Positions 18,001 through 21,000 of a stretch of 64,000 nucleotides of DNA are shown here, in pieces (the first letter of the stretch is position 1; each line of letters begins with the position of its first letter). A program made the position numbers. The stretch is taken from assembly GCF_053078305.1 (NCBI RefSeq), contig NZ_CP166879.1. One strand, 5' to 3'.

Positions 18001-21000
18001 GCAGGAAGATTAAGAATCCGGCAGCTTCTGCCAGAACGGATATCAGGGCGAATTACTGGAGTCTGTTAGCGGGGCCTTCATGGCGGGTTAATCAGTACAT
18101 GAGTTTATATGCGATGGCAGGGATGGGCGTTGCTAAAGTTAGCGCTGACCTGAAAATTAAGGACAATATTAACAGTAGTGGCGGATTTTCTGAAAGCAAC
18201 AGCACGAAAAAAACCTCCCTTGCGTGGGCTGCAGGTGCACAGTTTAACCTGAATGAGAGTGTTACACTGGATGTGGCTTACGAAGGTTCCGGCTCTGGCG
18301 ACTGGCGCACGAGTGGCGTTACTGCTGGCATTGGCCTGAAATTCTGACCTGTATCCGGTAACCGTTTACTACCCGCTGTGATGGCGGGTTTTTTATTGCC
18401 CGTACAGGGCAAAAACCGTAAATTATGCGTGGGTGCCTTTCGGCTGATGGCTGGAGGGAGAACCTGAAGGCCTGATGTGGAAAGGCCCCGAGTCAACTTT
18501 AACGTTAACCCGAGGCCCTGACCGTACAACCTTCACAAGTAGTAGGTTAGCGCCTCTCCATTCAGGAGACAAGCGTTATGTCGCAAAAATCGCTCATCAC
18601 CGTCACAATTTGTATGACGGTTATCTTCACCATCTGGATGTTACACGGCTCGTTGTGTGAGTTCCGGCTGAATTTGTGGGGAGCGGAGTTTGCGGCGTTC
18701 TTACAGTGTAAGCAGTAGGAAAACCGCGACGGGGATGAAAGTCCCCGTCAACTGGTTGCTGAGGTTCAGCCGATATGGCACCCGTTTCAGGTGAGAGAAT
18801 GAACGATAAAATTCTCCGGTATATGCAGCGTGTGGTGAGAAATTCCCGCAACCCTGAATTTATGAATGAAGTTAAAGACGCCTGCCTTAAAAAGCAGGCG
18901 TTTTGTTTTGAGGCACCTGATGGCTTTCTGGTGCTGCGTTCTGTGCTCAGTGACGATGGTATCCCTTATGTTCTGGTGTTGCTGGGCGTGTGTACGGGGA
19001 GTAACAGCGTTGAGCGTTATCTGCCGGAGGTGAAGACATTAACCCGTCTGGCTGGCGGACGCTGGGCTGAATTTCATACGGCAAGGCGGGGATTTATCCG
19101 GCTGGGAAAACGTCTGGGCTTTGAGCGAATGCCGGATGATGAGGATGGCTTCATGGTGTTCAGGATAGCGGTCTGACTGCTACAGTTTTCATCATTGTGT
19201 TTAAACCAACATTGTAATTCACATTCTGACCCTGCTCCGGCAGGGTTTTTTGTTATCCAGGGGGCCATTATGGGTGGAAGTAAAGGCGGTGGTGATACCA
19301 AAGTAAAACCAACAGCAGCGCAAATAGCACAGGAAGAAGTGGCCTGGAAAGGGTGGCAGGATTATCAAAAAATCCTCCGTCCGGCAGAAGATAACTTCAT
19401 GGAAAAGGTCGATGACCTTAACAGTGAGCAGCAGTACGAAAATATCGCCGGTACAACAAATCTGGGATATCAGAAACAGTTTGGTGAAACGCGAAGGGAG
19501 CTGGCGGGTAATCTTGCTCAGTCCGGCGTTGACCCATCCAGTGGTCGTTTTAATGCGGTAATGGATGCAAATCAAAGCGACCAGGTGACCGGGCAGATTG
19601 ACACAACCACACGGGGACAGGTGTCGCAGGCAGATAAATATATTGCCGGGCTACAGGATGTTGCAGCTCTCGGTTCTGGTCAGAAGGCGGATGCGTTACA
19701 GAGTTTTAACTCTCTGGCAGACAGCAGTCTGGCAAAAGCTAAATCGGATGCACAGGCGGCGTTTACGAAACAGCAGGGTCGAGCCTCTCTTGTTGGCGCT
19801 GGTCTGGGTGCGGCAGGTGCATATGCGATGCATAAGGCTGGCGGTAGCGGAGGAAGTGGCGGTGCTAAAACACCTGGCACCGGCGCTAATGCCATTCAGT
19901 ATCAGGCTCAGAACTGGAGACTGTGATTATGGAGTACGGTAAATACGAAACACTTGCGAGATACGGTTATACCGGAGCAGCCCGCCCTCAGGGGGACTGG
20001 CAGACATCCGCAGCGCTGACCCGCCAGCAATACGACGACTGGCGCACCAGATATTTACCCCGTGTAGCAAGGCTGGCTGACCTTGGCGAGAACAACAGCC
20101 TGATGAATGCACAGCTTGCCCGGGTGGGCGGCCTTGCCACTTCCAGTCTCCGTACAGCGCAGATGGCGCAGGATAACCAGATGGCGAGATACGGGGTAAG
20201 CCGCCCGGATAATCCCGACAGTAATACGCTGGGGTTACGTAATGCCCTGGCAATAGCAGGTGCGAAAAATGGTATCCGTGAAGCCGAACAGGATCGCCAG
20301 ATGAATATTCTGACGGGGGCTTCTGCACCGGCAAGACAGAAACTGAGTGTTGGCGGACAACTGGTGGCAGCGTAAGGGGGCAATATGGGATACGGTTTAC
20401 TGGATATTGCAAATCAGTCGCGGCGTGAGGCATTACAGGGAATAAGTGACGCAGACAGACGACGTACAGAGATTGAGGCATCAAATAAACAACTGGCTGC
20501 TCAACAGAAAGCTCAGAAAAAACAGAATATCGGTACGGGCATTGGTACGGGGGCGGCTATTGGCGCATCCGTTGGTGGTCCTGTTGGCGCTGTTGCTGGT
20601 GCAGTAATTGGCGGCATTGCAGGCGCTTTGTTTTAAGGAGTGGTGAATGAGCGGATTTGCACAGGGGTTACTTGCCGGATTCAGCACTGTTGACCAGGCA
20701 ATGACCCGTCGTAAGGAGCTTGGTTTGCGAGAAGCACAGCTTGCTCAGCAACAGAAAAATAACGAGCGCGATTTTGAATTTGCGCAGTCTCAGTTTGAGC
20801 ACCGAAAAGAAAATGATCAGCGTACATATGATCTTAATGTCAGGAATGCCGATCGTGAATATGCGCTGAAAGAGAGGGAACACAAAGCAGCGCAGAATTA
20901 TCGAAATGCGTCACTTGGGCTATCTCAGCAGAGACTGCAACTGGAAAAATACAACCAGCGACGGCTTGAGTATAACGATATGCTGGCGCGCGATCAGCCT

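What the first reader, a model, noticed from the sequence alone, without database searches (positions are those of the whole stretch)
18400..18760. Unannotated hok/mok/sok-type type I toxin-antitoxin locus between lom and the ejection genes
A 46-aa ORF (18578-18718) missed by the 60-aa ORF cutoff encodes MSQKSLITVTICMTVIFTIWMLHGSLCEFRLNLWGAEFAAFLQCKQ, which has the Hok-family TM helix and SLCE.R...E.AAF..C signature. An overlapping upstream reading frame (18475-18660) is positioned like mok, and a stem-loop (gacgggga...tccccgtc, approx. 18727-18748) follows the toxin ORF. A Sok-like antisense RNA would be expected opposite the 18450-18560 leader, but I could not define its promoter. Hok loci are known in enterobacterial prophages; here it would act as an addiction or abortive-infection element inside the structural gene block.
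Basis: partly seen in the sequence, partly recalled or inferred. Interest (0 to 1): 0.5.

Follow-up and report, generated by a model that had tools for sequence, protein, structure and literature searches.

The report
Second Hok/Sok toxin-antitoxin cassette beside lom
The 46-codon gene after lom is a real Hok-family membrane-toxin gene with its own promoter, folded mRNA and antisense-RNA promoter; databases already annotate the gene, but its antisense RNA matches the "24B_1 microRNA-like" RNA published for Shiga-toxin phage Phi24B, and the searched literature does not make that link.

Summary
ORF 18578-18718 encodes a 46-aa Hok/Gef peptide (Pfam PF01848, E 4.7e-8; PHROG 251, E 2.8e-24).

It lies in a self-contained cassette of about 390 nt (18396-18783):
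- a conserved promoter;
- a 5' end (GGGUGCC) that pairs with a 3' GGCACCC, as in hok mRNAs;
- a 3' hairpin with compensatory changes;
- a conserved antisense promoter, TTGTCT-17-TAACCT, at the position of the Sok promoters of R1 and sokW.

The same cassette occurs after lom in 933W-like phages, after ogr in P2-like prophages, and elsewhere.

The "mok" frame (18475-18660) is not conserved: only 3 of 13 relatives have it, and 933W and Phi24B have 8 codons. The gene is also not unannotated, because RefSeq calls it "Hok/Gef family protein" in hundreds of genomes. It is not the published hokW-sokW, which is absent from the window.

The antisense transcript has been published as the "24B_1" microRNA-size RNA precursor of Phi24B. 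The published promoter, 80-nt precursor, deletion and complementing plasmid all map onto this hok leader. Those papers never mention hok. This is an ordinary kind of element and a new member of it, with a testable reinterpretation.

The parts
17613..18347 (+). lom (Ail/Lom outer-membrane protein) gene. Context only; upstream neighbour of the cassette.
   Evidence: ORF; PHROG 108 E 7e-79; annotated as Ail/Lom in relatives.
18371..18395 (+). Intrinsic terminator of lom (stem 18371-18389 plus T-run). It insulates the cassette from lom transcription.
   Evidence: Terminator scan. Homology between cassette copies starts just downstream of it.
18396..18424 (+). hok promoter: -35 TTGCCC (18396-18401), 17-nt spacer, -10 TAAATT (18419-18424). 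Predicted +1 is at G18431.
   Evidence: ATTG and TA.A.T are invariant in 13 copies from four different genomic contexts, while sequence upstream of -35 is unrelated. It scores only 8/12 to consensus, so the strict scan missed it.
18431..18783 (+). Core of the hok mRNA, from the 5' element GGGUGCC (18431-18437) to the complementary 3' element GGCACCC (18777-18783).
   Evidence: BLAST homology of divergent copies begins and ends at these points. The MFE and consensus folds pair the two ends. Structure z-score is -4.9. 15 covarying pairs against 6.7+-1.6 in shuffles, 0/500. Rfam RF01794 aligns 18431-18588.
18484..18489 (+). GGCCCC, the local alternative partner of the 5' end (tac-type stem). It is used when the 3' element is removed.
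   Evidence: Rfam model structure. Fold of the 3'-truncated RNA 18431-18752. Invariant in 13 copies.
18475..18660 (+). Judged fortuitous in this allele.
   Evidence: Only 3/13 copies have it from this ATG. 933W, Phi24B type and RM10042 stop after 8 codons, and CFE299 reads ATG-TGA. No start codon follows the conserved GAGG (18512-18515), where mokW and R1 mok start.
18544..18572 (-). Promoter of the Sok-like antisense RNA: -35 TTGTCT (18572-18567), 17-nt spacer, -10 TAACCT (18549-18544). Equals p24B_1 of Phi24B (TTGACT / CGCTAACCT).
   Evidence: The -10 and the TTG of -35 are invariant in 13 copies. sokW of 933W has the same -10 hexamer and spacing. It aligns with the R1 Sok promoter through the Rfam model. 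Published promoter mapped (PMC4426718).
18478..18537 (-). Predicted Sok-like antitoxin RNA of about 57-60 nt: 5' single-stranded tail, 16-bp hairpin (18519-18482), then UUUCC. The published '80-nt 24B_1 precursor' corresponds to 18536-18456.
   Evidence: Fold z-score -5.05; same architecture as the R1-type Sok control. Ends inferred from the annotated sokW. RT-PCR primers of PMC4426718 mapped.
18487..18507 (-). Equivalent of the 20-nt 'mature 24B_1' RNA (loop plus 3' arm of the Sok-like hairpin). The window carries a 1-nt insertion (AAA for AA).
   Evidence: The same indel opens the mok-like frame.
18564..18568 (+). hok Shine-Dalgarno AGGAG, 9 nt before the ATG. It is paired with CUCC (18555-18558) in a small hairpin.
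   Evidence: Sequence. Helix 9 of the consensus structure, 96% of cells paired. Last hairpin of the Rfam model.
18578..18718 (+). hok-family toxin gene, 46 codons plus stop.
   Evidence: 46 codons in all 13 copies, with no gap column in the CDS against 10 in the leader. dN/dS 0.17-0.5.
18681..18698 (+). Downstream box inside the hok coding region. It pairs with the start-codon region 18578-18595, a long-range helix that sequesters the AUG.
   Evidence: Helix 10 of the consensus structure: 16 pairs, 96.6% paired, one compensatory pair. Also present in the single-sequence MFE folds.
18728..18749 (+). Probably the stop for 3' trimming that removes the 3' element (inference by analogy with R1 hok).
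   Evidence: 4 of 9 pairs have compensatory changes. No T-run on the + strand. Terminator-like only on the minus strand.
18799..19176 (+). Downstream neighbour (L0129 / vb_24B_43 homologue, PHROG 610, unknown function). Not part of the cassette. It contains a + strand terminator-like hairpin at 18883-18909.

Best explanation
This is an autonomous, moron-type hok/sok type I toxin-antitoxin cassette (window 18396-18783). It is a paralogue of the hokW-sokW locus of 933W/Sp5, not that locus itself.

Proposed mechanism:
1. A weak promoter makes a hok mRNA of at least 353 nt. Its 5' end (GGGUGCC) is locked to a 3' element (GGCACCC). Its start codon is buried by pairing with a box inside the coding region, so the full-length RNA is inert.
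2. From the opposite strand, a promoter in the leader makes a short, highly structured Sok-like RNA of about 57-80 nt. This RNA is complementary to the leader 18478-18537.
3. While the Sok-like RNA is made, it pairs with any hok mRNA that has refolded and triggers its inactivation or cleavage.
4. When transcription of the cassette stops or the antisense RNA decays, 3'-trimmed hok mRNA refolds and is translated. The 46-aa peptide inserts into the inner membrane and collapses the membrane potential and ATP.

Unlike R1 hok and hokW, this subfamily has no conserved mok frame. The antisense RNA therefore probably acts through duplex formation and RNase cleavage, or by blocking refolding, rather than by blocking a coupled leader ORF.

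The Sok-like RNA is the molecule published as the precursor of the '24B_1 microRNA-size RNA' of phage Phi24B.

Shown here: the family of the peptide, the cassette boundaries, the conserved promoters, the conserved and covarying mRNA structure, and the coordinate identity with 24B_1.

Inferred: toxicity, RNA half-lives, processing, and the biological role in the prophage.
For: Toxin:
- Pfam PF01848 E 4.7e-8; PHROG 251 E 2.8e-24; NCBIfam HokA best hit.
- ORF length is fixed at 46 codons in 13 copies that differ by up to 24% in DNA. dN/dS is 0.17-0.5, with no indels in the CDS against 10 gap columns in the leader.

Cassette:
- Homology among copies in four contexts starts at the hok -35 and ends at GGCACCC. 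The contexts are after lom, after ogr of P2-like prophages, between J and a tail-fibre gene, and in an island.

RNA:
- The Rfam hok-leader model (RF01794, which matches the hok sense strand in an R1-type control at 87 bits) aligns end to end at 18431-18588, E 1.2e-6.
- 5'-3' pairing appears in the single-sequence and consensus folds.
- 96.4% of cells are paired. 15 pairs are compensatory against 6.7+-1.6 in shuffles (0/500) and 1-5 in slid controls.
- Removing the 3' end switches the 5' end to the local GGCCCC partner.

Antisense RNA:
- The -10 TAACCT and the TTG of -35 are invariant.
- The hexamer and 17-nt spacing are identical to the annotated sokW promoter. The function of that promoter was shown by mutation (PMC8621323).
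- 2223 small-RNA reads of the minus-strand sequence, an RT-PCR product and Hfq binding (Kd 25 nM) are reported for Phi24B (PMC4426718, PMC10732415). All map here.
- Phi24B encodes the identical 46-aa peptide.
Against: - No experiment shows that this 46-aa peptide is toxic.
- The Rfam score (36.5) is below the gathering score (59). NCBIfam scores (38.4 and 22.7) are below their cut-offs (89 and 73).
- Both promoters are weak by consensus (hok 8/12; antisense 7/12 in this window). The strict promoter scan found none.
- The canonical mok coupling element is missing. How the antisense RNA would block translation, about 27 nt upstream of the SD, is therefore not explained by the textbook model.
- In PMC4426718 the 80-nt RT-PCR product was absent before induction and present 80 min after. 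That is not what a constitutive antitoxin in a lysogen predicts. However, that RT-PCR is not described as strand-specific, and copy number rises on induction.
- No + strand terminator directly follows the 3' element. The nearest is 18883-18909.
Confidence: 0.78

Rival explanations
1. The published interpretation. The minus-strand transcript is the precursor of a trans-acting, microRNA-like 20-nt RNA (24B_1) that regulates d_ant, S and sdhB. Under this view the hok-like ORF on the other strand is irrelevant to its function.
For: PMC4426718 and PMC10732415 report several effects (read):
- a single abundant 20-nt species;
- changed lysogenisation, induction and gene expression in the deletion mutant;
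- complementation by a plasmid;
- weak in-vitro pairing with sdhB mRNA (<10% bound).
Against: - The deletion (window equivalent 18380-18566) also removes the hok promoter, the whole hok leader, part of the SD and half of the lom terminator.
- By its published primers, the 'overproducing' plasmid carries the entire hok cassette, equivalent to 18268-18831. The genetics therefore do not separate the RNA from Hok.
- The antisense promoter and hairpin are conserved together with an intact hok ORF in P2-like prophages and other contexts. I did not check whether the proposed targets d_ant and S occur in those contexts.
- The 20-nt RNA is simply the loop plus 3' arm of the Sok-like hairpin.
- This window's allele has a 1-nt insertion inside the '20-nt' sequence.
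Confidence: 0.12
2. A decayed or silent hok remnant. The ORF and RNA motifs are inherited from a hok/sok ancestor but no longer make a toxin, like several inactivated chromosomal hok loci of E. coli K-12.
For: - The mok frame is lost or scrambled by indels.
- Scores are sub-threshold against curated Hok and Sok models.
- Both promoters are weak.
Against: - There is purifying selection on the 46-codon frame, with no indels or stops in 13 divergent copies.
- Promoters, SD, long-range helices and the 3' hairpin are all conserved, with compensatory changes.
- The cassette is widespread: 1749 of 5426 complete E. coli genomes, in several prophage types.
- Antisense RNA was detected in Phi24B (PMC4426718).
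Confidence: 0.08
3. A chance small ORF with a hydrophobic stretch in an intergenic spacer.
For: None beyond its small size.
Against: - Family-level hits.
- Conservation across contexts.
- A significant structured-RNA signal.
Confidence: 0.01

Closest known systems
hok/sok of plasmid R1 (and Rfam RF01794 'sok', which models the hok mRNA leader)
   Same: - Hok/Gef peptide with the CE.R...AAF core (30% identity).
- A leader that aligns over the whole Rfam model.
- A 5' end that can pair either locally or with a 3' element.
- A sequestered SD and AUG.
- A 3' hairpin.
- An antisense promoter at the same model positions (R1-type TTGCGC-17-TATCCT against TTGTCT-17-TAACCT here).
- An antisense RNA with a 5' tail plus one long hairpin.
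   Different: - The toxin is 46 aa rather than 52 aa and ends in QCKQ, giving a second Cys.
- The leader is about 20 nt shorter.
- There is no conserved mok reading frame and no start codon after the conserved GAGG.
- The Rfam score is 36.5 against 87 for the R1-type control.
- It is located in prophages as a moron rather than on a plasmid.
hokW-mokW-sokW of phage 933W / Sakai prophage 5 (Plunkett annotation in AF125520; Takada et al. 2021, PMC8621323)
   Same: - Same phage lineage. 933W, VT2-Sakai and relatives carry both loci.
- Same family and same antisense -10 hexamer TAACCT with a 17-nt spacer.
- Hfq involvement is reported for both antisense RNAs (PMC8621323, PMC10732415).
   Different: - It is a different gene at a different site, about 13 kb away near the right end of 933W. 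HokW is 51 aa and 35% identical.
- hokW has an annotated mokW.
- hokW-sokW is absent from this window.
- hokW-sokW toxicity, antitoxin function and effect on lysis have been shown experimentally. None of this has been shown for the lom-adjacent locus.
24B_1 'microRNA-size' RNA of phage Phi24B (Nejman-Falenczyk 2015, PMC4426718; Bloch 2023, PMC10732415)
   Same: - Same locus. Phi24B is about 96% identical here and encodes the identical 46-aa peptide.
- The published promoter, 80-nt precursor and 20-nt RNA map to window positions 18572-18544, 18536-18456 and 18507-18487 on the minus strand.
   Different: - The papers treat it as a trans-acting microRNA-like regulator and do not mention hok, sok or toxin-antitoxin.
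- The window allele has -35 TTGTCT instead of TTGACT and a 1-nt insertion in the 20-nt sequence.

Membership tests
Hok/Gef toxin family (Pfam PF01848) | Small peptide with an N-terminal TM helix and the conserved C-terminal core, matching the family HMM | tested here: met
   PF01848 E 4.7e-8, 33.0 bits, residues 8-44 on model 6-42/42. PHROG 251 E 2.8e-24. Invariant C12, T14, C27, E28, R30, A39 and F41 against HokW and R1 Hok.
Hok/Gef toxin family (NCBIfam curated models) | Score above the curated cut-off of NF007290 (HokA) or NF007279 (Hok family) | tested here: not met
   38.4 bits against a cut-off of 89, and 22.7 against 73. It is a divergent subfamily. PGAP nevertheless names it 'Hok/Gef family protein'.
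hok/sok type I TA locus | cis-encoded antisense (Sok) RNA, transcribed from a promoter inside the hok leader and complementary to the leader | tested here: met
   Conserved TTGnnn-17-TAACCT on the minus strand in 13/13 copies. Positionally identical to the annotated sokW and R1 Sok promoters. Minus-strand RNA reads are reported for Phi24B at this site (PMC4426718). Not measured for this window's allele.
hok/sok type I TA locus | Long-range pairing of the mRNA 5' end with a 3' element (tac/fbi), with an alternative local 5' stem | tested here: met
   GGGUGCC 18431-37 pairs with GGCACCC 18777-83 in the MFE and consensus folds. 97.8% of cells are paired, and variation is only by G-U-compatible changes. 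The 5' end refolds onto GGCCCC 18484-89 after 3' truncation. This is prediction only.
hok/sok type I TA locus | mok: a reading frame that overlaps hok, starts inside the Sok target, and is translationally coupled to hok | tested here: not met
   A frame from ATG 18475 exists in the window, but only 3/13 copies have it. Ten copies have ATG-frame ORFs of 1-25 codons that end before hok (two of these have a hok-overlapping frame from the adjacent GTG), and no start codon follows the GAGG used by mokW and R1 mok.
hok/sok type I TA locus (Rfam RF01794) | Score at or above the gathering threshold (59 bits) | tested here: not met
   36.5 bits (window), 40.0 (RM10042) and 35.6 (933W), against 87.2 for the R1-type control. 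E-values are 1e-6 to 6e-5, with full model coverage 1-157.
hok/sok type I TA locus | Toxin kills or arrests the cell by membrane damage; the antisense RNA neutralises it; unstable antitoxin against stable mRNA | not testable with these tools
   No experiment on this peptide was found. Indirect evidence: strains carrying the whole cassette on pUC18 or on the prophage had lower ATP (PMC10732415, read).
hokW-sokW of 933W/Sp5 | Being that locus (HokW, 51 aa, MKQQKAM...; mRNA 5' GGGTGCTTGAGGCTATCTGCC) | tested here: not met
   No match in the window with up to 3 mismatches. No RF01794 hit at the gathering score. 35% peptide identity. Different position in 933W.
24B_1 RNA locus of Phi24B | The 20-nt sequence TAACGTTAAGTTGACTCGGG and promoter boxes TTGACT / CGCTAACCT between lom and vb_24B_43 | tested here: inconclusive
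   Same locus and same -10 box. The -35 differs at one base, and the 20-mer carries a 1-nt insertion in the window. The homologous region is unambiguous, but the exact 'mature' RNA is not identical.

The most novel reading that the evidence does not exclude
The '24B_1 microRNA-like RNA' of Stx phages is a fragment of the Sok-type antitoxin of this unrecognised hok gene. On this reading, its published phenotypes are wholly or largely consequences of perturbing Hok toxin expression rather than of a trans-acting microRNA. Those phenotypes are altered lysogenisation, induction timing, survival after infection, global phage gene expression and lowered ATP. In addition, this Hok subfamily works without mok, so its Sok acts by a mechanism other than blocking a coupled leader ORF.
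Probability: 0.4. Interest if true: 0.65.

Novelty: new member of a known kind. Interest (0 to 1): 0.45.

Why it matters
The toxin gene itself is routine: PGAP already annotates it.

Three things are worth knowing.
1. 933W-type Stx phages carry two different hok/sok modules, and only one (hokW-sokW) has been studied.
2. The second module belongs to a compact, mobile, apparently mok-less Hok subfamily. It also sits at the end of P2-like prophages and in other moron positions, and occurs in about a third of complete E. coli genomes.
3. The RNA promoted in the literature as the first functional bacterial 'microRNA-size' molecule maps exactly onto the Sok position of this module. Both the mutant and the plasmid used to study it also alter or carry the hok gene.

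This gives a concrete, cheap genetic test, a hok start-codon mutation. It could change how a decade of 24B_1 results is read, and how TA modules influence the lysis-lysogeny behaviour of Shiga-toxin phages.

Tried and rejected
- Rfam at gathering thresholds over the whole window found only MicF and three naRNA4 copies, with no hok/sok hit. The hit appears only in E-value mode.
- The strict sigma-70 scan found no promoter on either strand in 18300-18900 or 18700-19300. The promoters were defined by conservation and homology instead.
- I first suspected the locus was the published hokW-sokW. I rejected this: the primers and sequence in PMC8621323 belong to a 51-aa gene elsewhere in 933W.
- I rejected mok as a conserved feature. 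I also considered that the conserved ATG 18475 starts a short leader ORF that unmasks the hok SD. Its stop position varies from -98 to +134 relative to the hok ATG, so I did not adopt this idea. The conservation of GAUGUGGAAAGGCCCC is explained by pairing with the 5' end.
- I rejected the 3' hairpin as a + strand terminator because it has no T-run.
- A scan of species-representative genomes with a 22-nt coding motif gave only 3 contigs, all P2-type copies (two in probably contaminated MAG contigs). It added no diversity.
- PADLOC has no model for the peptide.
- The Sp5 morphogenesis paper and the EHEC ciprofloxacin transcriptome paper contain nothing on this gene.
- Literature searches combining 24B_1 with toxin-antitoxin, hok or sok found only a mini-review that lists them separately.
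Full report
**What is in the sequence**

The 46-codon ORF is at 18578-18718 on the + strand and has exactly the quoted translation. It follows lom (17613-18347; PHROG 108) and a strong lom terminator (18371-18389 plus T-run).

The peptide matches several Hok models:
- Pfam HOK_GEF PF01848: E 4.7e-8, 33 bits, almost the full model.
- PHROG 251 'MokW-like host killing': E 2.8e-24.
- NCBIfam: its best hits are the HokA and Hok-family models, but below their curated cut-offs (38.4/89 and 22.7/73).

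It is 30% identical to R1 Hok and 35% identical to HokW. It shares the invariant C12, T14, C27-E28, R30, A39 and F41.

**Is it unannotated?**

No. The 601-nt region is 95-97% identical in about 416 complete E. coli genomes and about 186 phage records. These are mostly 933W-like short-tailed Stx phages (Traversvirus, Sepvirinae).

RefSeq calls the ORF 'Hok/Gef family protein'. Other records call it 'small toxic polypeptide', 'prophage host toxic membrane protein' or 'MokW-like host killing'. The exact protein is on at least 1000 contigs. Only older records, such as 933W AF125520 and Phi24B HM208303, leave it out.

**It is a compact mobile cassette**

A more sensitive search with 18425-18795 finds the element in 1749 of 5426 complete E. 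coli genomes. In divergent copies (75-83% identity) the match runs from query base 3-7 to base 359, that is window 18427/18431 to 18783.

I fetched 12 copies. They lie in four contexts:
- after lom in 933W-like prophages;
- after ogr at the very end of P2-like prophages;
- between gpJ and a tail-fibre gene of a lambdoid prophage;
- in an island.

The alignment shows homology switching on at ATTGCC (the -35) and off after GGCACCC. Flanks outside these points are unrelated.

Within the cassette:
- The hok promoter is conserved: -35 TTGCCC at 18396-18401, a 17-nt spacer, and -10 TA.A.T at 18419-18424.
- The hok ORF is 46 codons in all 13 copies. It has no gap column, against 10 gap columns in the 151-column leader.
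- dN/dS for the hok frame is 0.17-0.5. Window against 933W shows 6 synonymous and 0 non-synonymous differences.

**The mRNA has the hok architecture**

Rfam 'sok' (RF01794) actually models the sense-strand hok leader. In an R1-type control plasmid it hits the hok strand from the mRNA 5' end to the hok AUG at 87 bits.

In the window it aligns over all 157 model positions at 18431-18588, with 36.5 bits and E 1.2e-6 for the 601-nt search. Relatives give 35.6-40 bits. This is below the gathering score of 59, so nothing was reported at gathering thresholds.

Fold results for 18431-18795:
- MFE -147.7 kcal/mol, z = -4.9.
- The 5' GGGUGCC (18431-37) pairs with GGCACCC (18777-83).
- The start-codon region 18578-95 pairs with 18681-98, inside the coding region.

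The Phi24B copy folds the same way (z = -7.2).

The RNAalifold consensus of the 13 copies keeps these helices. Counts:
- 96.4% of cells are paired.
- 15 pairs have compensatory changes, against 6.7 +- 1.6 in column shuffles (0 of 500 reach it) and 1-5 in slid controls.

Removing the last 33 nt (fold of 18431-18752) switches the 5' end onto the local GGCCCC at 18484-89. This dissolves the hairpin that is the complement of the antisense RNA's hairpin. The switch is the in-silico equivalent of the fbi/tac switch known for R1 hok. The name and the mechanism come from established knowledge of R1 hok; here it is predicted only.

**The mok claim fails**

The frame 18475-18660 exists in the window. 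The ATG itself is invariant. It sits in GAUGUGGAAAGGCCCC, which pairs with the mRNA 5' end.

Indels downstream change what that ATG opens:
- 61-78 codons overlapping hok in 3 of 13 copies (window, ZH193, H106).
- 8 codons in RM10042, 933W and the island copy 10671. The Phi24B leader, with one base fewer at this indel, reads the same way.
- 1 codon (ATG-TGA) in one copy.
- 19-25 codons ending before hok in the rest. In two of those copies the adjacent GTG opens a hok-overlapping frame.

In hokW the annotated mokW ATG follows the conserved GAGG by 8 nt, inside the sokW target. None of the 13 copies has a start codon at that place.

In the window the long frame is created by a 1-nt insertion (TTTAAC for TTAAC).

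**The antisense RNA and its promoter**

On the minus strand, TTGTCT (18572-18567), a 17-nt spacer and TAACCT (18549-18544) are present. The -10 hexamer and the TTG of the -35 are invariant in all 13 copies. 933W-type copies have the better -35 TTGACT.

The annotated sokW of 933W has TTGCCT-17-TAACCT, and its 5' end is 7 nt after the -10. Takada et al. showed that mutating the sokW -10 region abolishes antitoxin activity (PMC8621323).

By analogy, the window RNA starts at 18537/18536 and ends near 18481-18478. It folds as a 13-17-nt single-stranded 5' tail plus a 16-bp hairpin (18519-18482) followed by UUUCC (z = -5.05). The R1-type Sok control has the same plan.

**Link to published work that does not mention hok**

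The lom-vb_24B_43 spacer of Phi24B is the source of '24B_1'. This is a 20-nt RNA (2223 reads), said to be cut from an 80-nt precursor transcribed from 'p24B_1' (-35 TTGACT, -10 CGCTAACCT) (PMC4426718).

Mapping these onto Phi24B and the window gives:

| Published feature | Window equivalent |
|---|---|
| Promoter p24B_1 | The antisense promoter above (18572-18544, minus strand) |
| 80-nt precursor | 18536-18456 (minus strand) |
| 20-nt RNA | 18507-18487: loop plus 3' arm of the Sok-like hairpin, with one extra A in the window |
| 189-nt Delta24B_1 deletion | 18380-18566 |
| pUC18_24B1 insert (2015 primers, a 565-bp amplicon) | 18268-18831 |

Phi24B encodes the identical 46-aa peptide at 45784-45924, which is unannotated in its record.

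The Delta24B_1 deletion removes more than the antisense RNA. It takes out the right arm and T-run of the lom terminator, the hok promoter, the whole hok leader, part of the SD, and the antisense -10 and transcript. The hok ORF is left behind.

The pUC18_24B1 amplicon is the whole cassette, including hok. The 2023 paper instead describes the plasmid as carrying a 189-nt region.

Hfq binds the precursor with Kd 25 nM. This parallels the partial Hfq dependence of sokW. Strains carrying the plasmid or the prophage had lower ATP. That is what leaky expression of a Hok-type toxin would be expected to cause; this is my inference.

None of the three 24B_1 papers contains the words hok, sok or toxin-antitoxin. 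The only paper in the library holding both '24B_1' and 'toxin-antitoxin' is a mini-review that treats them separately. The hokW-sokW paper does not mention a second locus.

**Not hokW-sokW**

The experimentally characterised hokW (51 aa, MKQQKAM...) lies near the right end of 933W with annotated mokW and sokW. It is absent from the window.

In this window the prophage right arm carries different cargo, in this order:
- a 2807-aa ORF (21943-30366);
- a YadA-like gene (30679-32244);
- an S6-family autotransporter protease gene (33124-37167);
- rcsD (37736-40408, minus strand), micF (40720-40813) and ompC (41147-42250).

**Mechanism, with status**

Shown here:
- the family of the peptide;
- the cassette limits;
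- conserved promoters on both strands;
- a conserved and covarying mRNA structure with a 5'-3' lock;
- the coordinate identity of the antisense RNA with 24B_1.

Inferred from the R1 and hokW paradigms:
- the full-length mRNA is inert;
- 3' trimming to the 18728-49 hairpin releases the 5' end;
- the refolded RNA is either bound by the antisense RNA and destroyed, or translated when the antisense RNA has decayed;
- the peptide depolarises the inner membrane.

Open points:
- How the antisense RNA blocks expression without mok.
- Where the hok mRNA terminates. The nearest + strand terminator-like site is 18883-18909, inside the next ORF.
- What the cassette does for the prophage. hokW-sokW speeds lysis and doubles phage release (PMC8621323). 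Deleting the lom-side region in Phi24B gave faster induction, more progeny and poorer lysogenisation (PMC4426718).

**Verdict**

This is a real hok/sok-type type I toxin-antitoxin cassette. It is a new member of a known kind, belonging to a divergent subfamily that apparently lacks mok. The toxin gene is already in the databases.

The added value is the apparently unrecognised identity between this cassette's Sok-like RNA and the published 24B_1 RNA.

Noticed in passing
window 40720-40813 (-): A full-length MicF RNA gene (Rfam RF00033, 118.7 bits). It lies between rcsD (37736-40408, minus strand) and ompC (41147-42250). The prophage therefore abuts the rcsD-micF-ompC region of an E. coli chromosome.
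   Followed up: partly
window 48801-49109 (-): Three tandem naRNA4 / REP-type elements (Rfam RF02564; 60.5-75.3 bits), spaced about 113 nt apart.
   Followed up: no
window 30679-32244 (+) and 33124-37167 (+): Cargo genes sit between the phage's giant 2807-aa ORF (21943-30366; LPD5/LPD38-domain protein in relatives) and rcsD. One is a YadA-like adhesin gene. The other is an S6-family (SPATE-type) autotransporter protease gene, by homology to strain JNEC-KY171. In 933W this part of the genome holds hokW-sokW, which is missing here.
   Followed up: partly
window 18883-18909 (+), inside ORF 18799-19176: A terminator-like hairpin (stem GCCTGC / GCAGGC, then TTTTGTTTT) that is also terminator-like on the minus strand (18901-18878). 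It lies within the conserved coding sequence of the L0129 / vb_24B_43 homologue (PHROG 610). It could end hok transcripts in this context, or attenuate the downstream gene.
   Followed up: partly
window 18497-18499 (the AAA / TTT run in the antisense hairpin loop): A 1-nt indel polymorphism. The window, 06_3044 and ZH193 have the extra base, while 933W, Phi24B and RM10042 lack it. The same base lengthens the loop of the Sok-like hairpin, alters the published 20-nt 24B_1 sequence, and opens or closes the mok-like frame.
   Followed up: yes
L006, L007, L010-L014 (P2-like prophage ends in various E. coli), about 190 nt downstream of ogr: The same hok cassette is the last element of many P2-like prophages, directly before the host junction. 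The junctions are at different sites (serS, yidD, ihfA and tRNA-Leu regions). This is a second common vehicle for the subfamily.
   Followed up: partly
literature: PMC10732415 versus PMC4426718: The 2023 paper describes plasmid pUC18_24B_1 as carrying 'the 189-nt region'. The primers given in 2015 for that plasmid amplify 565 bp of Phi24B (45473-46037). This includes the complete hok gene and the start of vb_24B_43.
   Followed up: yes
L017:1579-1716 (E. coli JNEC-KY171, the closest overall relative of the window's right arm): In this strain the annotated Hok/Gef protein at the same position is 45 aa rather than 46 aa. This is a length variant that I did not examine.
   Followed up: no
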